Positions 34,900 through 44,773 of a stretch of 64,000 nt of DNA are shown piece after piece. This DNA is from Candidatus Binatia bacterium (GTDB taxonomy: Bacteria > Desulfobacterota > Binatia > Bin18), in NCBI GenBank assembly GCA_965231765.1, contig OZ246887.1, positions 5,203,823 to 5,267,822 of the forward strand. Direction: 5' to 3'. Position 1 is the first letter of the stretch. Each line of letters begins with the position of its first letter. The notes beneath the pieces were generated by a model, which was not told the origin of the DNA, ran no database searches, and saw only the letters and a program-made list of their open reading frames with translations. The position numbers and the translations under genes were made by a program.

Positions 34900-37824
34900 C
34901 ATGAGCTTTCGCAGCACAGTCTTCAGATTCAGAGCCGCTATTTCCCCGAGGACAGCGAGTTATGGGTTGACCGCCAACTTGACCGGAACCTGGAAGAGGC
35001 TGTCGGCCGGGACGTCGTTTTTGTCGTTGCCGAGTCGGGTCTCGGCAAAAGCATAGCGTGTCACAAACGCCTGACGGCGCATGTTGAGATGGGAGGGTTT
35101 GGGCTGGTCATTCCGCATCAAATCATTGCTGACTCCCTGTCACTTGAGCAAGCGGTCGGTACGACGCTACGACAGCTCCATCCTTCTCTTGCCTCCGACG
35201 CGGGGAGCGAGGCGCGCGCGCTGGCGTCGGAACGCAAACCATTGTTGATGGTCGTGGAGGATATCAACAAATTTGGACAGCCAATCTCGCTCATCGAACG
35301 GCTGGCGAGCTGGAGCGCGCAGCGGGCAGAACGCAATCAGGTGGCCAGCTGGCAGATTCTTTGTCCGGTTTGGCCTCGGATACTCACAGCGCTTGGTGAT
35401 CAAGCCCGCAAGAAGATCAATGAGTTAGTGCTCACGGCATCTTCCTTCACACCAGAGGAAGGCGCTGCTGCCGTAAACCGCCGTCGCCACCAGGCAGGGA
35501 TTCCAATAACGCAGCTCGACGCAGAAGCGGTGGCGTCGGCTCTGGGTTACGATCCCTTTCTTATCGCCCTACAAGACCTTACGGCAACGCCAGACCCCAA
35601 CCATGTCATTCAAGCCTTTATCAAAGGCAGTCTCGAACGGCTCGCCGAAAGTCGCGGCGAGTTTACAGCGGGGGAATATCGAGAGGGATTGAGGCATCTC
35701 GCTGCCACAATGCTTGAACGGCGACGCCTTGATCTTTCTATGACTGACGTTGCCGCCTAGTTTGAAGACACACCCAGCACCGTAAACATGCTCCGGCATA
35801 TCGTCCGTTTCGGTGAGATCATTCGCGTTACTGGATCTGCCTCGAACGAGCGCTTGGCATTTCGCCATGACCGCGTTCTTGACTGGCTTCTTGCCGATGC
35901 GGCGGCAGACCTCATGCGCCATGGTGCCATCCCCCAGACCGTGCTGACGGAACCGTATTTTGCAGAAATCATCGGTGCTGCACTGGTCCGTGATGCCATC
36001 CCACTTGCAACGGTTGAACAGGTAAGAGTCACTAATCCCCTCGCGCTGTTCTGCGCAATGTCCGTGTTCGGCGAGCCGTGATCTGCACTGTGCCGTCCTC
36101 AAAGCTGCCGAGGCGTGGCTGGACGACGAGACAACACACACACCACACCACGAGAATCTTCGTTGGGCCGCGCGCCGTGTTCTCTCGGAATGTGATGCGT
36201 CCTATGTCATTTCGCTCGTCAAGCGCTTTCGTGAAGAACGAAACGATCGGTGGGGGCTACGCGCCCGTTTCCGCAATGGAGATTTTGGGGCGGGCCTCGT
36301 ACTTTGCAGTCTGTACCAGCCTGGGTTCGGCGTAGTCGGGCATGTGGAATTAATCGATCATGTTCAGCGGCGCCGAGGCAGAGCGCTTGTTCGCACGCTC
36401 AATGCTTTTCTGCGTCACGATCAACTCCCAGCTGCCGGCAGGTCTGGCGCTCTGAGGCTAGCCGGCTACCTCGCTGACCCGACGCTAGCCAGCGCAATTA
36501 AAACGTCCTGGTTGGCCGATACCGGCCGGGATGAGAGGCTCACGGATTATTTATGGGCTAGCGCGCAATGCGGTGGCGAGGATGCAGCCGGACTGTTGGC
36601 ACCGGTCTGCGATAAGTGGGCCGCGCTGCCCGATAAAGCAGACAGAGAGCATTCAGTCTCCTCCCGTAATAATCTCGCAGCGCATGAAATTCGATGGGCG
36701 TTTCGGGACAGAGTCCCTGAGTCGGCAATCCACTACTTCATCGAACAGGCAAAAACATCTGCATTGCGATGGCCGATCACCTTTATGCTGCACGGTATTG
36801 ATCACCCTGACGCGGTTGAGTTTGTTACTCGAGAACTCGCTGCAACTGAAAACTTTTCGCCGTTCGCGATGAACGCAGAAGATGAATGGAAGCGGCAGCA
36901 AGAAAAAACGGGCCGTGCGATGTCGGACGCTTCACGGAACCGGCTGCGTGAATTATGGACGAACAAACAGAATGGAAAACATCTGAGGAATTGGGCTACT
37001 GGTGGCAGGTAGGGCGGTATATCTGGTCGGATGAGCTGACTGAAAGTCTTGATGAGGCGCTAGGCCGGCGGAGCGACCGGGTGGAACGAGCTTGGGACTT
37101 CAATAATGAGATCTCGGCTGACTGTATTCTATCCGAGCGCCTGGTGGAGCTTCCAACGCCGACCGTGGAAGGATTACTGATCAAGCACTGGGATCATTTG
37201 CGTTTTTCATTTTACTATGTGCAAGCGGCTCTTTACACCGTGACTCCCCGACTCATGGAGATGGTCGCGCAAACGGTTGCCAGATGCCCGAACCCCAAAT
37301 CTATGTTTGAGCTCGCAACCAGGCATTTTGGAATCAGGACTAAAGAGCGAACGGGGATCGTGCGCATTGCGCAGCTTCAAGCCCTGTTGCCTTACCTTGA
37401 TCATCTTAGCGATCTGGATGTCCTAAACCTTTGGGAGACGTGCAACGATCATGGCTGGTTTGAATGGCGCCGTCAGCACCTCGATTCGCGTTTAAGGATT
37501 GGCAGGGCAAAAATATATGAAAATGACAACCGAGCAATGGCAGATCTTGACGACATGTTTCCCAAAGGGCTCTGGACTAATCATTGGGCTGACGAGTTTC
37601 TCAAAACCGGTATCTCCGTTGATCACATGATGGAAGTTGTACAGAACTGGTTGAGCCGACAAACAGACATTAGGGCTCTAACGATGGCAGCAGCCATTGT
37701 CGCCCATGCTGGTCAGCGTCGCCATATAAGTATCTTGTCCAGCCATAATATTGAGGCGACAGATCAGACTGGGCCCATCATTGAAGATACGCTTTTTGCG
37801 CTGAAACGGCGGTCTCCAAATTAG
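34900..37824 (+). pseudogene. frameshift-fragmented large P-loop NTPase (STAND/AAA-like) with helical-repeat C-terminal region
   Basis: Consecutive same-strand ORFs (34807-35760, 35788-36081, 36078-36335, 36344-37012, 36955-37824) run frame 1, then 1, 3, 2, 1 with overlaps. The first carries Walker A VVAESGLGKS and Walker B LLMVVEDINKF. The later pieces are alpha-helical. This is consistent with one ~950-aa gene broken by frameshifts. Confidence 0.4.
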
Positions 37825-38263: not shown

Positions 38264-38683
38264 TCATGCTCTTCCCCGACCTTTCAGCCCGTGTGGGGCG
38301 AGGATCGGCACGGAAAACACCAGAGCCAGGGTCAGCAGGTCCTCGTCACCCGTCACCAGGGCATCAGCCTGGCCCACCAGCGCCAGTTCGAGAAAAGGAC
38401 GGTCGAACGGGTCACGACACGCCGGGACGGCCGACGGTTCCGACACGCTGACCGTCTCGCACCAGGGCAGATAGTCGGCCAACAGATCTTCTCGCTCATC
38501 GTCGGTTAGCTGGAACTTGGCGTAGGACAGCACCCGAATCAATTCCGCCGTCGTCTCGCGGCTGGCCAGCGGCACAACGGCTCGCGCCTGCCACGCGTCG
38601 CGCAGCCAAGACACCGTTCCTGACGGGAACAGCAAGGCCGACACCAGGACATTGGTATCGAGCACCAACCGCCGAAAACTCAT
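38264..38683 (-). CDS. vapC: PIN-domain (VapC-type) toxin
   Basis: LVLDTNVLVSALL (first acidic residue), then a conserved ...TGDEDLL... acidic cluster. The start overlaps the antitoxin stop (ATGA). Confidence 0.7.
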   Translation of the reverse strand: MSFRRLVLDTNVLVSALLFPSGTVSWLRDAWQARAVVPLASRETTAELIRVLSYAKFQLTDDEREDLLADYLPWCETVSVSEPSAVPACRDPFDRPFLELALVGQADALVTGDEDLLTLALVFSVPILAPHGLKGRGRA

Positions 38684-38904
38684 TGAGCCTGGCGTGCCCA
38701 CGCCACGGCTTCTGCCACGTCCGTTTCGGACAAGCCCAGCTCGGCCAGTTTCGCCCGCACGGCATTAGCTCGGGTGAGCCGCACAGGGGTCAGCACGAGC
38801 CGCCCATTTTCGTGGGTGACATCGAAGTACTCTGTCCCCTGGAAGGCGGACACCAGCGCTTTCGGCAGGGTGAGTTGGTTCTTGGAAGTCAGTTTGGCAA
38901 GCAT
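38680..38904 (-). CDS. vapB: AbrB/MazE/SpoVT-family antitoxin
   Basis: 74 aa with a swapped-hairpin motif (LTSKNQLTLPKALV). It lies immediately upstream of the PIN gene and overlaps it. Confidence 0.65.
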   Translation of the reverse strand: MLAKLTSKNQLTLPKALVSAFQGTEYFDVTHENGRLVLTPVRLTRANAVRAKLAELGLSETDVAEAVAWARQAQ

Positions 38905-39210
38905 GGAGACATCTTCCTTATTCTGTTGTAAGGAAACAAGGATAAAGAAGATCCTTTCTCAGGGCAAGAGGAGGGACGACCGTCGCCTCACTTGATCCGA
39001 CCGTCGTTTTTGCTGTCTTTTGTCACTGGAGGGATCTCACTCGGCCCAGCCTGGTGGACGAACTGAGGGCGGGAGCAGGGCAGACTTGGTTTCTGCTCTC
39101 TGCGGCCGCTCCCTTAATCATCGGTTCCCTCTTGATGAATAGTATACATATAACTAAACTTTTTCTATCTGTGCCAAGGAGAAGGGAAAGGAGGGGAGGG
39201 GAGGATGCTT

Positions 39211-39590
39211 TGACGCAAATTGTCGCTGAGGGAAAATGGGGAAGGGTCGAGTGGGCGACAGACCGAAACGGGAATATGCCCGCGCGGTCTTATTATTCGG
39301 ACCTTCCTGATAGCGACAAAGCAAAAATCCTCGCTCTTTTCAACTTTTTGCGATTTCTTCAAAACCGGGAGAAACTCAAAAAACTAGGCAGTAAGGCAAA
39401 AGGGAAAGACTCAGAATTGTGGGAATTCAAGAGCTTTCAACATCGTTTTCTCGGTGATTATAGGCCACACAGCCGCTTTATTATCGCGCGTGCGCTTCAG
39501 AAAAAAAGCGATAACTTGCCAACATCTGATATTGCACGAGCCATTCGTATTCTCCCAGAAAACGACCAGCGAGAGGAAGGAATGCCATGA
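39211..39590 (+). CDS. higB: HigB/RelE-superfamily (Gp49-like) toxin
   Basis: ...GKDSELWEFKSFQHRFLGDYRPHSRFIIARALQKK... resembles the Gp49/HigB family. The ORF opens at 39054; the start is placed at TTG 39211 after GGAGGGGAGGGGAGG, and is uncertain. The stop overlaps the downstream HTH gene (ATGA). Confidence 0.5.
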
Positions 39591-39940
39591 ATCGCCCCTC
39601 CACGGACTATGAACTTTTTGAGCAATCCTCAGATCACAACAGACGGCTTCTGCGAGAGGAAGAGTTGATCCTGGAGGTGACAGAAGCGGTCAGCGCGGTG
39701 ATGCAGGAAGAAGGCATCTCTAAAGCCCGGCTCGCAAAGCGCCTGGGGAAAACCAAAGGATTCATTTCCCAGCTCTTGTCGGGCGGACGGAATCTGACCC
39801 TGCGGACGCTCGCTGGCCTTGTTGATGCGTTGGGATATCGGGTCACCATTACGGTTTCCAAGAATCGTGATAGCAGGTCTGTCGGCAGCGAGTCTCCTGA
39901 CCTCAGAGTCATCAATATCGAATCTTGGTCTTCCCCCTAG
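39587..39940 (+). CDS. higA: HTH (XRE/HigA-like) antitoxin with short C-terminal extension
   Basis: HTH reads ISKARLAKRLGKTKGFISQLLSGGRNLTLRTLAGLVDALG, and a ~25-aa tail follows. Its position after the toxin matches a HigBA-type reversed TA arrangement. Confidence 0.6.
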   Translation: MNRPSTDYELFEQSSDHNRRLLREEELILEVTEAVSAVMQEEGISKARLAKRLGKTKGFISQLLSGGRNLTLRTLAGLVDALGYRVTITVSKNRDSRSVGSESPDLRVINIESWSSP

Positions 39941-40017
39941 ACCCAGCCGCCGGTTTGGAGGGAACCCACTGTCAGTATTCCTCTCCAAACCTCAGTTAGT
40001 GACTATGGAGCAGCAGC

Positions 40018-40494
40018 ATGAGCAAGGCAGCTGATGGCCTGAAACGATTGATTGCGGAGGTCGAGATTGAAGGGGTGCGCCTCGTTGAAGCAAACGCGGA
40101 AACGAAGGTGCGGTCGCCGGAAGACACTGGCGCTGTTGATCTCTTGGTCAATCGAACGGCCGGGATTAGCGAGCGTCAAGAAAACGGGATGTTTTTTGTT
40201 GTGGCAACCATCAGGGCTCAACTTGTCTCTGAAGAGGCGAAGGAGGAGCCTCTGGTCTCGATCGAGACGAGTTTTGAACTCCAGTATCGCCTCCCTGAAG
40301 GATTGCGCGTCGATCCTCAAGCTCTGACAACCTTTGCCGAGACGAACGGGATCTATAATGCCTGGCCCTATTGGCGTGAGTTTGTGCAAAGCACGTTGGC
40401 CCGGATGGGACTCCCGCCAGTCGTGCTCCCGTTGTTACGCGCTCGGGAGGTGAAGGAGAAGACAGAAGCCGAGAAGGCAGAGGGGGTGGTATGA
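40018..40494 (+). CDS. SecB-like chaperone (TAC-system-type)
   Basis: 158 aa. Blocks align to E. coli SecB: VEANAET vs FEAPNAP, FFVVATIRAQLVSEE vs YEVVLRVTVTASLGEE, and AWPYWREFVQSTLARMGLPPVVLPLL vs [26 protein letters not shown]. Confidence 0.55.
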   Translation: MSKAADGLKRLIAEVEIEGVRLVEANAETKVRSPEDTGAVDLLVNRTAGISERQENGMFFVVATIRAQLVSEEAKEEPLVSIETSFELQYRLPEGLRVDPQALTTFAETNGIYNAWPYWREFVQSTLARMGLPPVVLPLLRAREVKEKTEAEKAEGVV

Positions 40495-41306
40495 AGTCAG
40501 ACCTCATTAGCAAAGCGACCCGGAACGCGTTTCGAGAAACTCTTGTGAATTACTCTCTTCGTCAGATAGACACGATTTTTGATGGGGCAGGACTGAGTCC
40601 CAAATTGGATCACAATCCGAGCGTACCAGGCCAACGGCGCACCTTGGTCGAGCAGTATTACGCTGGTATCGACTTTCGCTCTCCGAGCGATATCGACCAA
40701 CTCCTCTCTGCTTACGGAGAGCTAGTATTGCAAATGGGAGGCTCCGACGAACCGCTCTGCAGAGATCTTCTGCAACGCATGGAACAGGATGGGTACTCCT
40801 ATCAAGCAGGGAGCTTCATTCAGCTGCCAAACAGACAACAACCTCTCGTCGCCACTATCCAGTCTTACGCGGTCGCTCTTGATCTCGAAGGACTGCAAAG
40901 CCAAATCCATCGTCTTACTCAGGCTGCTGAAAATGATCCCCCTCTAGCCGTGGGAACAGCAAAGGAGATGGTGGAGACAATCTGCAAGACTATCCTTGAA
41001 AAAAGAGGTGTATCTACAGATGACAAAGAACTGCCAAAGCTTGTCCGTGCGACAGCTAAAGAACTCGCCCTACTGCCGGGGACTGTTCCCGACAATGCGA
41101 AAGGTTCAGAGGCCATTCGTCGGCTGCTCAGCAACTTGAACCAAGTCGCCCAGGGGATGGCGGAGCTCCGTAACCTCTATGGCACCGATCATGGTCGCGC
41201 TGGACGTGTCAAGGGTATACAGCCTCGACACGCTAGGCTCGCCGTCGGAGCGGCGACAACCCTGGCCACTTTCTTGCTGGAAACACATCTGGAGCGCAGT
41301 CCGTAG
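40491..41306 (+). CDS. HEPN-superfamily / Abi_C-like (abortive-infection C-terminal domain) protein
   Basis: The start overlaps the SecB-like stop (ATGA). The C-terminal ELRNLYGTDHGRAG carries an Rx4-6H HEPN motif in the position typical of Abi_C-family proteins. Confidence 0.55.
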   Translation: MKSDLISKATRNAFRETLVNYSLRQIDTIFDGAGLSPKLDHNPSVPGQRRTLVEQYYAGIDFRSPSDIDQLLSAYGELVLQMGGSDEPLCRDLLQRMEQDGYSYQAGSFIQLPNRQQPLVATIQSYAVALDLEGLQSQIHRLTQAAENDPPLAVGTAKEMVETICKTILEKRGVSTDDKELPKLVRATAKELALLPGTVPDNAKGSEAIRRLLSNLNQVAQGMAELRNLYGTDHGRAGRVKGIQPRHARLAVGAATTLATFLLETHLERSP

Positions 41307-41869
41307 GTGCCAGCCTCATGGTTCGCAGACAAGGACTCAAATGCATAACCGACGTGCTGGCCTGGATCAAAGCGCAGGGTGCCAGCTATCAGACCCGGAT
41401 GAACGCCGTGTTCCGGGCCTTCCAGGAAGCCACCAGATAATCGGGGGTCCGGAGATTCTCCTACACTGACGAGGGTAGACCCCTCACAGTCGAGCGAAGA
41501 GCCGGGGCAACAGAGACAAAAAAGGAGGAGGAAATCATACCCAGATGCAACATCTTATTGCGTCGTCTAGGAGACAGGTTTGGGCCGGTCTTCTCGGCTC
41601 GTTCTCCTCTGCTCTTGTCGTTGTTAAAATCCTCGGGTTTGGAAAGCAGGTTACAATAACCGGGAAAGTAGACTCCGTTGACCTGATATCTATTTATCTG
41701 AAGGAATGTGAATTGGTCGATGAGTAGATTTCGCGCAATCCTGCCGGCAGGCCACAGGCAAACGCCTCCCACTTCCAAGCTTGACACTTTGTCCCTTACC
41801 AGACGGAGCGGGTGGCGCGGCCTTATGTGGGCGGAGGAAAATCAGGGACTTACAGAGCCAGTCGAGCCC

Positions 41870-42095
41870 GGCGGGGCTGGACGATTTTAGAGAAAAGGAC
41901 AGATCGGCCGACGATTCTTCAGTGCGGAGCTTGGGGGTAGGGCCGAACGGCTGCCAAGTTGTCTTCAAAAAGCGCAGCCGTCATTGCACCTCAATAATCA
42001 CAAAATTCTGGCTTGCCTCTTGCCACTCGACCGTCACTGTTGTGTCCGGCTCGGGGAAGTCAGGCAGATCGTACACGCCACTCGCGCCCGTCAGA
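41870..42095. repeat. direct repeat copy B (partner of 34671-34895)
   Basis: Covers the last ~115 bp of the LRR gene plus ~110 bp of downstream sequence. Upstream of it (41700-41890) lies a degenerate remnant resembling the Sel1 gene C-terminus (...EPVEPGGAGRF* vs ...VVPAGPGTAERF*). Confidence 0.7.
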
Positions 42096-44773
42096 AACGT
42101 CTCGCCCAGGGTGGTGACGGTAAACGTTGCCCGCCCAAACTCTTTGCCGTCGGCTAAGGCCCGCACGGTGTGCTCGCCGTCGCCGAACTCGTTCCAGTTC
42201 AGCCGCAGTCCGAAGCCGGTGTTGGTGTCGTCGCATAGCTCCGTCATATCCTCCCGACTCGCGCCAAAGGCGGCCTCAAAGGTCGCCGTGCCATCAATTT
42301 CAATCTCGACCTGCTCGGCCCCACACACCCAGCCCGACACGAGGCCGATTCCGCTCTGGAACGAGCCGGCAACAGGATTTTCCAACATGCCGGGCAGATC
42401 GCTCTGGGCGGCCGGATCGCTCTGGGCGGGCGGACTCTCGGCAGGAGGTGAAACCGCGGCAATCACAAAGTTCTGCAATGCCTCTTGCCACACGAGCCGT
42501 ATCTGTTGCCCCATGTCGGGAAAGTCGCTCAGCAGGTAGTCGCCCTGTACGCCGGTCAGGAACTCCACGCCGAGCGTTGTCACGCTAAAGGTGGCCGTGC
42601 CGAACTCCAGCCCATCGGCCAAGGCTCGCACTGTATGCTTGCCGTCGCCGAGCAGATTCCAGTTCATCCCCAGTACGAAGCCATTATTCCGGTCGCCGCA
42701 GGGCTCCAGGCTATCCTCCCGGTCGGTCCCGTATGGAGCGGTCAGGACGGCTTCGCCGTCGATTTCCAGCTCGACCAGCTCAGCCTCACATACCCAGCCC
42801 GAAATGAACCCGATACCACTCTGAAAAGTCTCGGGTCCCAGTATGTCCAAGGCACCAACAACGAAGTTGACGACGAGCGTGTACTGCCCGGTCAAGGCGC
42901 CATAGCCCCGCACCGCTACCTCATACGTCCCGGCGGCGACGGGCGCGACCAGCAGGAAATTCTGGCCGTCGCCGCTATCGTCGTCTCTCGCAATCTCCTC
43001 GCCCGCTTGCCACAGGGTCCCGACGGTGTCCATATGGCCGGTCGTCTCGACTGTCAGCGTCCCGGCTTGGGGCACGGCAATTTGGAAGTAATCGACATCA
43101 CCCGCCGGTCCAATCTGGCCCGAGGTTGATGAAGCGGGCTCGACGTGCGTAGCGGTGCCTGGCACATCAGCGTGGGCGTCAACGGGCGGAGTCAGCGGGG
43201 CGACGTCCGGTTCAAACGGTTCGCTTGATACGGTCGGCATCAAACCCCGGTAGCAGGGGAGGTCGAGGAAGGAGCAGGAGTCGCTTGGAAGCGCCGGCGC
43301 GGCACCCAGCGTGATCCGTACCGGGCCTCCAGTCGGGATGACGGTAATCGCGTCGCTGGTGACGCCGCCCCTAGCCACGGTGACCGACGGAGCTGACAAG
43401 GTCGCGCCGGTCACGGACAGGTCGACCGTCATGGCGAACGGCGCGCCGGAAGCGACCTTGACGGCGACTCCACCGGAAGGCGTGGTGTTCTCCAGCGTCA
43501 TCGCCACGGGAAAGGGGGCACCAGGGTTGGCGTTGAGCCACACTTGCCGCAGGCTGGTGAGACCGGCAAACACCTTGGGCGGCAGGCTGGTAAGGTGGTT
43601 GCCGCTGAGATCTAAGACCTGCAGGCTGCTCAGGCCGGCGAAGAGCGTCGGTGGCAGGGTGGTGAGTTGATTCGTGTCAATCTCTAATCTCACTAGATTG
43701 GTCAGGCCGGTAAAGACATCGGGCGGGAGGGCGGTGAGGCGGTTGCGGTCAAGGAACAGGATCCCCAGATTGGTCAGGCCGCTAAACACGTCGGGCGGGA
43801 GGGCGGTGAGATCGTTTTCGTGGAGATACAAGCTTTGCAGATTGGTCAGGCCGGTAAAGATGCCGGGGGGGAGGGTGGTGAGGTGGTTGTCGTGGAGATA
43901 CAAGCTTTGCAGATTGGTCAGGCCGGTAAAGATGCCGGGGGGGAGGGTGGTGAGGAAGTTATTCCTGAGCGATAAGTATTCCAAGCTGGTGAGGTTGGCA
44001 AACACGTCGGGGGGAAGAGTAGTGAATTCGTTTCCAGAGACCACCAGGGTCTCCAGATTGGTCAGGCCGGCAAAGAGGCCGGGGGGGAGGGTGGTGAGGC
44101 GGGTGTCGTTGAGCCACAAGTACACCAGATTGGTCAGGCCGGCAAAGACGTTGGGCGGGATGTCGGCGAAGTCGTTGTCGTCCAGATCCAAAATTCTCAA
44201 GTTGGTCAGGCCGGCGAAGACGTTGGGGGAGAGGCTGGTGAGATCGTTGTGCCACAGATTCAGCTGTCGCAAGTTGGTCAGGCCGGCGAAGACGTTGGGG
44301 GGAAGGGTGGTGAGGTCGTTGCCGTAGAGATCCAACTGCTCCAAGTTGGTGAGACCGGCAAAGTCACCCGACTGTAATGTTTCTATGCGTTCGGAGCCCA
44401 GACTCAAAACACTAATGCGGCCGAGCTGGTCGGGCGTCACATCGGCGCAGGTTACCTCGCCTCCGACTATAGCGACGAGGGCGTCTCGCACCTGTGGGGT
44501 CCGGTCGCAGACACCAGACTGCGTCTGCGCCTGAGCGGTGGAAGACAGCGCTAGCAGGCTCATGGTCAGGAGGAAGAGAAGGCAGGCTCTTCCTATGCTC
44601 CAGTGGTGGCATCCCTGCTCCTGAGGCCCCCGGCCTAGTGGACAGGCAGCCAGAAAAAGACAAGACATGGCGAACTGCGCCACGCCTGGGACATTATTGT
44701 AGGTGCTGGAGGGGGAATCCATTCTGTCTGTGCCTCTTAAGCGGTGCATCATAATAGACAGCTGCCATACCAA
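41981..44773 (-). CDS. secreted leucine-rich-repeat (LRR) protein with PPC (pre-peptidase C-terminal) domain and two tandem ~135-aa C-terminal domains of unknown type
   Basis: About 13 units of LTNLxxLxLxxNxLTTLPPxxFAG (24-aa LRR). Then GDVDYFQIAVPQAGTLTVETTGHMDTVGTLW (PPC-like). Then two homologous domains (FQSGIGxxSGWVCxAExVExEIDG...HTVRALADGxEFGxATFxVTTLG...WQEAxQNFVI). The signal-peptide-like N-terminus makes the exact start uncertain. Confidence 0.8.
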   Translation of the reverse strand: MVWQLSIMMHRLRGTDRMDSPSSTYNNVPGVAQFAMSCLFLAACPLGRGPQEQGCHHWSIGRACLLFLLTMSLLALSSTAQAQTQSGVCDRTPQVRDALVAIVGGEVTCADVTPDQLGRISVLSLGSERIETLQSGDFAGLTNLEQLDLYGNDLTTLPPNVFAGLTNLRQLNLWHNDLTSLSPNVFAGLTNLRILDLDDNDFADIPPNVFAGLTNLVYLWLNDTRLTTLPPGLFAGLTNLETLVVSGNEFTTLPPDVFANLTSLEYLSLRNNFLTTLPPGIFTGLTNLQSLYLHDNHLTTLPPGIFTGLTNLQSLYLHENDLTALPPDVFSGLTNLGILFLDRNRLTALPPDVFTGLTNLVRLEIDTNQLTTLPPTLFAGLSSLQVLDLSGNHLTSLPPKVFAGLTSLRQVWLNANPGAPFPVAMTLENTTPSGGVAVKVASGAPFAMTVDLSVTGATLSAPSVTVARGGVTSDAITVIPTGGPVRITLGAAPALPSDSCSFLDLPCYRGLMPTVSSEPFEPDVAPLTPPVDAHADVPGTATHVEPASSTSGQIGPAGDVDYFQIAVPQAGTLTVETTGHMDTVGTLWQAGEEIARDDDSGDGQNFLLVAPVAAGTYEVAVRGYGALTGQYTLVVNFVVGALDILGPETFQSGIGFISGWVCEAELVELEIDGEAVLTAPYGTDREDSLEPCGDRNNGFVLGMNWNLLGDGKHTVRALADGLEFGTATFSVTTLGVEFLTGVQGDYLLSDFPDMGQQIRLVWQEALQNFVIAAVSPPAESPPAQSDPAAQSDLPGMLENPVAGSFQSGIGLVSGWVCGAEQVEIEIDGTATFEAAFGASREDMTELCDDTNTGFGLRLNWNEFGDGEHTVRALADGKEFGRATFTVTTLGETFLTGASGVYDLPDFPEPDTTVTVEWQEASQNFVIIEVQ
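43821..43964. repeat. two near-identical tandem 72-bp LRR coding units
   Basis: 43821-43892 and 43893-43964 are identical for the first ~62 bp (tggagatacaagctttgcagattggtcaggccggtaaagatgccgggggggagggtggtgag). G7/C7 homopolymer runs recur in neighbouring units. Confidence 0.7.

What the first reader, a model, noticed from the sequence alone, without database searches (positions are those of the whole stretch)
39211..41306. Toxin-antitoxin-chaperone (TAC)-type HigB/HigA/SecB-like module fused to a HEPN/Abi_C-like gene
Four co-directional genes with translational coupling are seen in sequence. A Gp49/HigB-like toxin (39211-39590) overlaps by ATGA an XRE-HTH antitoxin with a C-terminal tail (39587-39940). 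A SecB-like chaperone follows (40018-40494; alignable blocks to E. coli SecB include WPYWREF...PPVVLPLL vs FPYAREC...PQLNLAPV). It in turn overlaps by ATGA a 271-aa protein whose C-terminus carries an Rx6H HEPN motif (RNLYGTDHGR) in an Abi_C-like context. From established knowledge, toxin-antitoxin-SecB-like tripartite systems are known from M. tuberculosis HigBA1-Rv1957. Pairing a SecB-like chaperone with a HEPN/Abi_C predicted RNase as a translationally coupled downstream gene is not an arrangement I recognise as described. By inference, the HEPN protein could be a second chaperone-dependent toxin, or the abortive-infection effector of a phage-sensing module.
Basis: partly seen in the sequence, partly recalled or inferred. 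Interest (0 to 1): 0.8.

Follow-up and report, generated by a model that had tools for sequence, protein, structure and literature searches.

The report
Decaying HigBAC cassette beside mobile HEPN gene
The four genes are real, but they are two independent, already-known defence modules: a HigB/HigA/SecB-like toxin-antitoxin-chaperone cassette, mutationally damaged in this lineage, and a stand-alone AbiJ-like HEPN gene joined to it by recombination in one narrow lineage, not a new four-gene system.

Summary
Four co-directional genes lie at 39210-41306: HigB/Gp49, XRE-HTH HigA, a SecB-like chaperone and an Abi_C/HEPN protein, with ATGA overlaps at g1/g2 and g3/g4. The chaperone call is solid: its family profile hits M. 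tuberculosis Rv1957 at E 4.6e-13, and the predicted fold matches 5MTW.

The four-gene-system reading fails. The HigB-HigA-chaperone trio recurs in about 70 of 80 loci across several phyla, and none carries Abi_C. None of 80 Abi_C loci carries a SecB-like or HigB gene. DNA comparison shows a mosaic: 39115-40482 matches TAC-only cassettes, and 40480-41306 matches stand-alone Abi_C genes. The switch lies in a purine-rich stretch and creates the ATGA overlap. A 95%-identical Abi_C copy (L173) sits in an unrelated HNH/type I R-M context.

Only a narrow, probably Binatia, sub-clade shares the junction, and there the TAC is damaged. higB carries an ancestral 8-nt deletion, re-framed in the window by a second 1-nt deletion. 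The window's HigA has a private TGG-to-TAG stop that removes three of four aromatic ChAD residues and the terminal Ala-Ala. Its Abi_C has a private G233D next to the catalytic His.

Verdict: new members of known kinds, incidentally juxtaposed. Low interest.

The parts
39115..39209 (+). 5' end of the mobile TAC cassette: an AT-rich putative promoter/operator region and the GGAGG ribosome-binding site upstream of higB
   Evidence: blastn homology of 83-85% to the TAC-only loci L001-L003 begins at 39115-39125. The consensus promoter scan was uninformative.
39210..39590 (+). higB (Gp49/HigB RelE-superfamily toxin, 126 aa, TTG start). It carries two indel scars: a 1-nt loss in the T-run at 39337-39340, and an 8-nt deletion between 39351 and 39352. 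Together these replace 'LFQLFANQG' with 'LFNFLR'.
   Evidence: Pfam PF05973 E 1.3e-5. The intact L001 orthologue hits PDB 6AF3 HigB at E 2e-5. Indels are shown in alignment A3. The same 8-nt deletion leaves higB frameshifted in L081 and L166.
39587..39940 (+). higA (XRE-HTH antitoxin), truncated to 117 aa by a private TGG-to-TAG nonsense codon at 39938-39940 (W118*)
   Evidence: HTH_3 E 1.7e-8. L001-L003, L081, L166 and L174 encode a 144-aa HigA with Trp at this codon.
39941..40021 (+). Cut-off remainder of the HigA ChAD tail: 26 codons still open in frame (TQPPVWREPTVSIPLQTSVSDYGAAA), ending in the TGA that overlaps the chaperone ATG
   Evidence: Read-through translation aligns with full-length HigA of relatives. 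59 of 72 family members end in Ala-Ala or Val-Ala.
40018..40494 (+). SecB-like TAC chaperone (HigC-type, 158 aa). The last five codons (AEGVV*) derive from the junction with the Abi_C cassette.
   Evidence: Profile hit to 5MTW_C at E 4.6e-13. Foldseek 5MTW at 8.8e-10, then SecB 1OZB/1FX3/1QYN. PADLOC PD-T4-9_C (CmdC) at 5e-5. C-terminus comparison.
40476..40490 (+). Recombination junction between the TAC cassette and the Abi_C cassette, in a purine-rich stretch. It replaces the chaperone's native stop and creates the ATGA overlap.
   Evidence: TAC-only homology ends at 40482 and Abi_C-only homology starts at 40480. Alignment A2 shows the switch.
40491..41306 (+). AbiJ-like Abi_C/HEPN gene (271 aa): an unassigned, mostly helical N-terminal domain (about residues 1-150) plus a C-terminal HEPN domain. 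The HEPN motif R227-x6-H234 lies at 41169-41192. A private G233D substitution lies at 41187-41189.
   Evidence: PF14355 E 4.4e-27 and PADLOC AbiJ 4e-12. The motif is ELRNLYG[TS]GHG in 118 of 120 homologues. The AF2 model has pLDDT 82, with weak hits to HEPN structures only.
41351..41440 (+). Remnant of a BrnA-type antitoxin gene (C-terminal ~30 codons only), which travels with the Abi_C cassette
   Evidence: PF14384 BrnA_antitoxin E 1.4e-7, profile positions 44-67 of 68. Homology to L173 runs from 40491 to 41446.

Best explanation
Two separate, self-contained defence modules lie end to end. Module 1 (39115-40482) is a HigBAC-type toxin-antitoxin-chaperone cassette. HigB is a RelE-superfamily mRNA interferase. 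HigA is an XRE-HTH antitoxin whose disordered, aromatic-rich C-terminal ChAD tail ends in an Ala-Ala degron. The SecB-like chaperone holds that tail and keeps HigA soluble and stable. By analogy with characterised TACs, titration of the chaperone, for example by a phage structural protein, would free HigB (inferred). Module 2 (40480 to about 41446) is a single-gene AbiJ-family abortive-infection protein, in which an N-terminal domain presumably senses and restrains a C-terminal HEPN RNase (inferred from the family). In an ancestor of one narrow, probably Binatia, sub-clade the two were joined by recombination in a short purine-rich stretch. This removed the native Abi_C upstream region and the chaperone's native stop codon, which produced the ATGA overlap. 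Abi_C is therefore probably co-transcribed with the TAC (inferred) but does not depend on it. In this sub-clade the TAC is degenerating. higB acquired an 8-nt frameshifting deletion. The window copy regained the frame by a second 1-nt deletion, which scrambles and shortens a helix. The window's HigA lost the distal ChAD and the degron through a nonsense mutation. If the window's HigB is still active, the shortened HigA would be expected to act as a stable, chaperone-independent antitoxin, which would disconnect the chaperone sensor (inferred).
For: Identity of the parts. Trio synteny: HigB is found in 67, HigA in 72 and the chaperone in 78 of 80 genome loci from Binatia, Vicinamibacterales, Pirellulales, Phycisphaerae, Methylomirabilota and others, and Abi_C in none, by both phmmer and an Abi_C HMM. 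About 67 of these loci have at least 1 kb downstream of the chaperone gene. Reverse survey: 79 metagenomic Abi_C loci, 36 of them with at least 1.2 kb upstream, contain no SecB-like and no HigB gene, and only one generic XRE. Mosaic DNA: window 39115-40482 is 83-85% identical to the TAC-only loci L001-L003, and 40480-41303/41307 is 83-88% identical to the Abi_C-only loci L082/L084. The junction is shown. L173 carries Abi_C at 94.9% nt identity, with homology starting exactly at the ATG and an unrelated HNH/IS/type I R-M context. Junction-type chaperone C-termini (AEGVV) occur only in the window, L081, L165, L166 and L174. Lesions. The 8-nt deletion is seen in three independent assemblies, including a short-read one (L166). 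Literature: ChAD removal makes HigA chaperone-independent, and C-terminal Ala-Ala or Val-Ala acts as a ClpXP degron (bioRxiv 10.1101/2024.02.24.581848). AbiJ family proteins have variable N-terminal domains plus HEPN, and solos are embedded in other defence operons (PMC3710099). Here Abi_C relatives lie next to HsdM/HsdS in some loci.
Against: HigA, the chaperone and Abi_C stay intact in four or five sub-clade members. Their dN/dS there (HigA core 0.33-0.44, chaperone 0.33-0.39) is below 1 although higB was inactivated ancestrally. This could mean HigA and the chaperone retain a function, although the counts are only 10-17 substitutions. The tight ATGA overlap would allow translational coupling of chaperone and Abi_C whatever its origin. 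The private TAG and G233D changes cannot be distinguished from sequencing errors without reads. No experiment supports any functional statement for these particular proteins.
Confidence: 0.8

Rival explanations
1. One reading: a true four-gene system in which the HEPN/Abi_C protein is a second chaperone-dependent toxin or the effector released when the TAC senses phage.
For: ATGA overlap between the chaperone and Abi_C. The arrangement is inherited in at least five assemblies of one sub-clade with chaperone and Abi_C ORFs intact. dN/dS is below 1 for HigA and the chaperone after higB inactivation.
Against: 0 of 80 TAC loci carry Abi_C and 0 of 80 Abi_C loci carry a SecB-like gene. Abi_C copies 76-95% identical stand alone elsewhere. 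The overlap is a junction by-product. Abi_C has no ChAD-like disordered aromatic extension and is colinear with stand-alone homologues. The AbiJ family is described as single-protein systems (PMC3710099).
Confidence: 0.06
2. Regulatory capture only. Abi_C lost its own promoter at the junction and is now transcribed from the HigA-autoregulated TAC promoter. HigA and the chaperone are kept because they set Abi_C expression, with no protein-level dependence.
For: Only about 11 nt of native Abi_C upstream sequence remains. No separate promoter-like site was found between 39600 and 40490. HigA and the chaperone are retained after higB inactivation.
Against: The promoter scan is a crude sigma-70 consensus and is uninformative for this phylum. 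No operator was identified. An internal promoter within the chaperone gene cannot be excluded. The window's HigA nonsense mutation spares the DNA-binding domain, so it neither supports nor contradicts this model.
Confidence: 0.12
3. The window-specific lesions (HigA TAG, the T-run length in higB, Abi_C G233D) are assembly or sequencing errors, so the window's TAC and Abi_C equal those of its sister strains.
For: All three changes are private to the window among five closely related assemblies. One lies in a homopolymer, and the two substitutions are both G-to-A.
Against: If the T-run were really T5, as in the sister strains, the window's higB would be frameshifted like theirs, so the module would still be damaged. 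The shared 8-nt deletion is real, being present in three independent assemblies. Neighbouring genes show no excess of disruptions.
Confidence: 0.15

Closest known systems
M. tuberculosis HigBA1-Rv1957 TAC (PDB 5MTW)
   Same: Toxin-antitoxin-chaperone gene order. HigB-type toxin. XRE-HTH antitoxin with a C-terminal ChAD tail that ends in a small aliphatic dipeptide. The SecB-like chaperone is the best sequence-profile and fold match.
   Different: Only about 21% identity in the chaperone. The clade here is distinct and marked by an invariant WPYWRE motif. In the window the toxin carries indel scars and the ChAD is truncated.
E. coli NT1F31 HigBAC (Mets et al., bioRxiv 10.1101/2024.02.24.581848)
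   Same: HigB/HigA/SecB-like architecture. The ChAD has spaced aromatic anchor residues, four in this clade: W114, W118, W124 and Y140. The mechanism is presumably the same: the chaperone protects the antitoxin and is titrated by a phage protein.
   Different: The ChAD here is about 48 aa rather than 96 aa. No phage trigger is known. Here the terminal Ala-Ala is strongly conserved (51 of 72), whereas E. coli HigA inactivation was reported not to rely on ClpXP.
CmdTAC / PD-T4-9 (Vassallo et al. 2022, PMC9519451)
   Same: The chaperone gives a weak PADLOC hit to PD-T4-9_C, which is CmdC (E 5e-5). Same tripartite logic.
   Different: The toxin is HigB/Gp49, not an ADP-ribosyltransferase. The antitoxin is unrelated.
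Lactococcal AbiJ / Pfam Abi_C (PF14355) HEPN family (Anantharaman et al. 2013, PMC3710099)
   Same: C-terminal Abi_C HEPN domain with an R-x6-H motif. An N-terminal non-catalytic domain. Occurs alone or embedded in other defence operons such as type I R-M.
   Different: The N-terminal ~150 aa match no Pfam domain, AbiJ-NTD families included. The window copy has Asp in place of the near-invariant Gly next to the catalytic His.
HepT-MntA HEPN/MNT type VII TA systems
   Same: HEPN RNase toxin fold (weak Foldseek matches to 7BXO and 7AE6).
   Different: No MNT nucleotidyltransferase partner is encoded here. The domain family is different (Abi_C), and the protein has two domains.

Membership tests
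TAC (toxin-antitoxin-chaperone), HigBAC type | RelE/ParE-superfamily HigB (Gp49-like) toxin gene as the first gene | tested here: met
   PF05973 at E 1.3e-5, 25.6 bits against a cutoff of 23.9. The orthologue hits PDB 6AF3 HigB at 2e-5. Caveat: the window allele carries -1 and -8 nt scars, so activity is uncertain.
TAC (toxin-antitoxin-chaperone), HigBAC type | Antitoxin with a canonical DNA-binding domain plus a C-terminal chaperone-addiction (ChAD) extension | tested here: inconclusive
   The family meets this: 144-aa HigA, a ~48-aa tail with four aromatic residues, and an Ala-Ala or Val-Ala end in 59 of 72 members. The window copy stops at codon 118. It keeps one aromatic residue and loses three, plus the terminal Ala-Ala.
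TAC (toxin-antitoxin-chaperone), HigBAC type | SecB-like chaperone encoded directly downstream in the same orientation | tested here: met
   Profile against PDB 5MTW_C at E 4.6e-13. AF2 model plus Foldseek gives 5MTW at 8.8e-10 and SecB at 6.5e-8. There is no Pfam SecB hit.
TAC (toxin-antitoxin-chaperone), HigBAC type | Conserved three-gene synteny across genomes | tested here: met
   HigB in 67, HigA in 72 and chaperone in 78 of 80 loci, usually with 0-30 nt spacing or overlaps.
TAC (toxin-antitoxin-chaperone), HigBAC type | Antitoxin needs the chaperone to neutralise the toxin | not testable with these tools
   Requires co-expression toxicity assays.
AbiJ / Abi_C HEPN abortive-infection proteins | Abi_C (PF14355) domain at the C-terminus | tested here: met
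   E 4.4e-27 over residues 182-264, covering the full profile 1-83. PADLOC AbiJ 4.2e-12.
AbiJ / Abi_C HEPN abortive-infection proteins | HEPN R-x(4-6)-H catalytic motif | tested here: met
   R227-x6-H234 is invariant in alignment A4. 118 of 120 homologues have ELRNLYG[TS]GHG, and the window has G233D.
AbiJ / Abi_C HEPN abortive-infection proteins | One of the described N-terminal domains AbiJ-NTD1 to NTD5 | tested here: not met
   There is no Pfam hit for residues 1-147 even at E 10. The model shows a mostly helical domain with a beta-hairpin. This places it in the Abi_C domain family, not strictly among AbiJ orthologues.
AbiJ / Abi_C HEPN abortive-infection proteins | Confers abortive-infection phage resistance as a single gene | not testable with these tools
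   Requires phage challenge assays. Stand-alone occurrence of close homologues is consistent with it.
   0 of 80 TAC loci and 0 of 80 Abi_C loci show the pair. It occurs only in the window, L081, L165, L166 and L174, which share one junction.
   The window's Abi_C is colinear with stand-alone homologues from Met1 to the C-terminus with no added segment.
CmdTAC (PD-T4-9) | ADP-ribosyltransferase toxin CmdT | tested here: not met
   g1 has no PADLOC hit and is Gp49/HigB. Only the chaperone resembles CmdC.

The most novel reading that the evidence does not exclude
After higB was inactivated in this sub-clade, HigA and the SecB-like chaperone were retained because they were rewired to the co-transcribed Abi_C HEPN protein. 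This would be a natural toxin replacement, in which the chaperone and/or HigA now gates expression or activity of a HEPN effector placed downstream of the chaperone. It would extend the experimentally shown modularity of TACs to a new warhead and a new gene order.
Probability: 0.06. Interest if true: 0.7.

Novelty: new member of a known kind. Interest (0 to 1): 0.22.

Why it matters
This result stops a lineage-specific gene juxtaposition from being catalogued as a new defence architecture. It also documents a large, uncharacterised clade of HigBAC-type TAC cassettes in Binatia, Acidobacteriota, Planctomycetota and Methylomirabilota. The clade has an invariant WPYWRE chaperone motif, and most of its antitoxins end in Ala-Ala. 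The locus gives natural examples of TAC decay: a toxin frameshift, re-framing by a second indel, and truncation of the ChAD and degron. It also shows a HEPN gene moving as a single-ORF unit between defence loci.

Tried and rejected
Pfam and NCBIfam do not recognise g3 as SecB (no Pfam hit; NCBIfam E 0.14). This was resolved with a family profile against the PDB and a predicted fold.

The consensus promoter and terminator scan and the inverted-repeat search upstream of higB gave nothing usable.

dN/dS was computed to ask whether HigA and the chaperone are still selected after higB loss. The values are intermediate (0.33-0.44) and rest on 10-17 substitutions. The higB values (0.45-1.6) rest on fewer than 10. 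Both are inconclusive.

The Foldseek search of the Abi_C model against the PDB gave only weak HEPN hits, E above 0.1. The N-terminal domain could not be assigned.

Ten same-strand ORFs lying close downstream of the chaperone in other TAC loci showed no recurrent or HEPN-like fourth gene.

TAG read as a sense codon was rejected, because Abi_C itself terminates with TAG.

A viral-contig scan found six SecB-like relatives, which were not analysed further.
Full report
**Observation.** The window carries four co-directional ORFs: g1 39210-39590, g2 39587-39940, g3 40018-40494 and g4 40491-41306. The in-frame start is TTG at 39210, five bases after a GGAGG. ATGA start/stop overlaps join g1/g2 and g3/g4. 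Between g2 and g3 there is a 77-nt gap.

**Identity of the parts.**
- g1 is a Gp49/HigB-type toxin: PF05973 at E 1.3e-5, above the gathering cutoff. The intact orthologue from L001 hits the solved HigB toxin 6AF3 at 2e-5.
- g2 is an XRE-family HTH protein: HTH_3 at 1.7e-8.
- g3 gets no Pfam hit, and NCBIfam SecB only at E 0.14. PADLOC gives PD-T4-9_C at 5e-5. PD-T4-9_C is CmdC, the SecB-like chaperone of CmdTAC (PMC9519451).
- A profile built from 36 g3 homologues has an invariant WPYWRE motif. It hits the M. tuberculosis TAC chaperone Rv1957 (PDB 5MTW chain C) at E 4.6e-13 over almost its full length.
- An AlphaFold2 model of g3 (pLDDT 89.4) gives 5MTW as the top Foldseek hit (8.8e-10, TM 0.70-0.84), followed by canonical SecB structures. 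g3 is therefore a SecB-like TAC chaperone.
- g4 has a full-length Abi_C domain: PF14355 at 4.4e-27 over residues 182-264, and PADLOC AbiJ at 4e-12. R227 and H234 are invariant across homologues. Its N-terminal ~150 residues match no Pfam family. The model (pLDDT 82) gives only weak fold hits, but these are to HEPN proteins.

**Is the four-gene arrangement conserved?** It is not.
- A scan of one genome per species with the chaperone alignment returned 80 loci from Binatia, Vicinamibacterales and other Acidobacteriota, Pirellulales, Phycisphaerae/Sedimentisphaerales, Methylomirabilota, Gemmatimonadota and others.
- Searching their six-frame ORFs with the four window proteins found HigB in 67 loci, HigA in 72 and the chaperone in 78, almost always in the order HigB-HigA-chaperone and tightly spaced. 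Abi_C was found in none. An Abi_C HMM also found nothing.
- About 67 of these loci have at least 1 kb of sequence downstream of the chaperone. What lies there is variable and often on the other strand. Ten close same-strand downstream ORFs showed no recurrent or HEPN-like gene.
- Conversely, 80 metagenomic loci retrieved with an Abi_C alignment contain no SecB-like gene and no HigB. Only one has a generic XRE neighbour. 36 of these loci have at least 1.2 kb upstream.
- Abi_C has no fixed neighbour. The largest neighbour clusters are type I R-M HsdM and HsdS, and Fic. This matches the published description of AbiJ-family solos embedded in R-M operons (PMC3710099).

**The locus is a mosaic.**
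- blastn shows that window 39115-40482 is 83-85% identical to the TAC-only cassettes of the Binatia MAGs L001-L003, and nothing else in those loci matches.
- Window 40480-41303/41307 is 83-88% identical to Abi_C genes in L082 and L084. Those genes sit between CoA-transferase and ABC-transporter genes, behind a pentapeptide-repeat or P63C gene, with no TAC present.
- The two homology blocks abut within a purine-rich stretch. TAC-only relatives end the chaperone gene with ...GAGAAGGAAGAGCGATAA. Abi_C-only relatives carry GGAGGTGGTGGTATGAAG upstream of their start. The window reads ...GAGAAGGCAGAGGGGGTGGTATGAAG.
- The junction therefore replaced the chaperone's native stop and produced the ATGA overlap. 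This is also why junction-type chaperones end in AEKAEGVV while all other close relatives end in AEKAEQ.
- A further copy, L173, is 94.9% identical in DNA from exactly the ATG (40491) to 41446. Upstream it has an HNH gene and an IS-like fragment, and downstream a type I R-M system.
- Abi_C is thus an independently mobile single-gene unit. Its protein is colinear with stand-alone homologues and has no ChAD-like extension.

**Extent of the junction.** The same junction is present in L081 (a 5.6-Mb contig, about 98% identical to the window across 36-45 kb, with the same VapBC and LRR neighbours), and in L165, L166 and L174. These are a narrow sub-clade with 90-100% chaperone identity, consistent with one ancestral event.

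**State of the TAC in that sub-clade.**
- Relative to L001 and L003, the window, L081 and L166 share an 8-nt deletion in higB. In L081 and L166 this splits higB into two frames. L166 is a short-read assembly, so the deletion is real.
- The window has an additional 1-nt loss in a T-run 15 nt upstream, which restores the frame. As a result LFQLFANQG is replaced by LFNFLR.
- The window's HigA has TAG where L001-L003, L081, L166 and L174 have TGG (W118). The frame stays open for 26 more codons, up to the conserved TGA/ATG overlap with the chaperone gene.
- In this family 51 of 72 HigA proteins end in Ala-Ala and 8 in Val-Ala. In this clade the tail has four aromatic residues: W114, W118, W124 and Y140.
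- According to work on E. coli HigBAC and M. tuberculosis TAC, spaced aromatic residues anchor the ChAD in the chaperone. Removing the ChAD makes HigA chaperone-independent. A terminal Ala-Ala or Val-Ala is a ClpXP degron (bioRxiv 10.1101/2024.02.24.581848).
- The window's stop removes three of the four aromatic residues and the degron. This predicts a stable antitoxin uncoupled from the chaperone (inference).
- The window's Abi_C also has a private G233D next to the catalytic His. 118 of 120 homologues have Gly there.
- dN/dS within the sub-clade is 0.33-0.44 for the HigA core and 0.33-0.39 for the chaperone, against 0.09-0.28 in intact relatives. For higB it is 0.45-1.6 against 0.14. All of these rest on very few substitutions. 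This suggests relaxed constraint but does not prove it.

**Mechanism.**
- Shown: the domain identities, the trio synteny, the independent distribution of Abi_C, the junction and the lesions.
- Inferred from characterised relatives: HigB cleaves ribosome-bound mRNA; HigA neutralises it and represses the operon; the chaperone binds the ChAD and is the phage-sensing element; Abi_C acts as a self-contained sensor-plus-HEPN-RNase abortive-infection protein.
- Inferred from the anatomy: Abi_C, having lost its native upstream region, is co-transcribed with the TAC.

**Comparison and novelty.** The TAC is a new member of the HigBAC/TAC kind, closest to Rv1956-Rv1957. It is not a CmdTAC, because the toxin is different. 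g4 is a member of the Abi_C (PF14355) domain family but has none of the described AbiJ N-terminal domains. The chaperone-HEPN adjacency has not been described, but the evidence indicates a lineage-specific recombination product rather than a system.

**Residual possibility.** HigA and the chaperone may have been kept after higB loss because they now serve the co-transcribed HEPN gene. This cannot be excluded and is rated at about 6%.

**Verdict.** The locus holds new members of known kinds, and the interest is low, about 0.2.

Noticed in passing
window 38264-38904 (- strand): A VapBC-type TA pair lies directly upstream and divergent from the TAC. It consists of an AbrB/MazE-like antitoxin (38680-38904; PF04014 at E 1.4e-3, below cutoff) and a PIN_3 toxin (38264-38701; PF13470 at 1.3e-20). 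The same pair is present in L081. The region is a small TA/defence cluster.
   Followed up: partly
window 41351-41440 (+ strand): The C-terminal ~30 codons of a BrnA-type antitoxin (PF14384 at E 1.4e-7, profile positions 44-67 of 68) lie just after Abi_C, with no N-terminal part and no BrnT. This remnant moves with the Abi_C cassette: homology to L173 runs to 41446.
   Followed up: partly
window 41981-44773 (- strand): A 930-aa leucine-rich-repeat protein with many LRR_8 copies, a PPC-like domain and an internally duplicated C-terminal domain. It is only 93% identical to the L081 orthologue, while flanking DNA is about 98% identical. blastn also shows many off-register repeat matches, which suggests repeat-driven variation.
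   Followed up: no
L173 1231-1842 and 1842-2797: The homology breakpoint of the Abi_C cassette falls exactly at its ATG in L173, and 11 nt upstream of it in L082 and L084. How a single ORF is exchanged with such precise 5' boundaries is unexplained. An IS5-like transposase fragment lies upstream in L173.
   Followed up: partly
L013, L071, L078 (Acidobacteriota/Vicinamibacteria loci): The gene order is inverted to HigA-HigB-chaperone in these three loci, a variant TAC layout. L078 also has a second HigA-like ORF after the chaperone.
   Followed up: no
L048 2305-2826 and 4944-5480; L067: L048 (Anaerohalosphaeraceae) carries two SecB-like genes within 3 kb. L067 is labelled as a Thermoplasmata archaeon MAG and has a SecB-like gene with no recognisable HigBA. 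This could reflect binning contamination or transfer to archaea.
   Followed up: no
L167-L172 (IMG/VR viral contigs): Six viral contigs encode relatives of the C-terminal half of the SecB-like chaperone (28-46% identity), so TAC-type chaperones of this clade also occur on phage or prophage DNA.
   Followed up: no
window 36344-37824 (+ strand): Two overlapping ORFs of 222 and 289 aa upstream of the VapBC pair have no Pfam match. They are conserved in L081 at about 98% DNA identity. Their function is unknown.
   Followed up: partly
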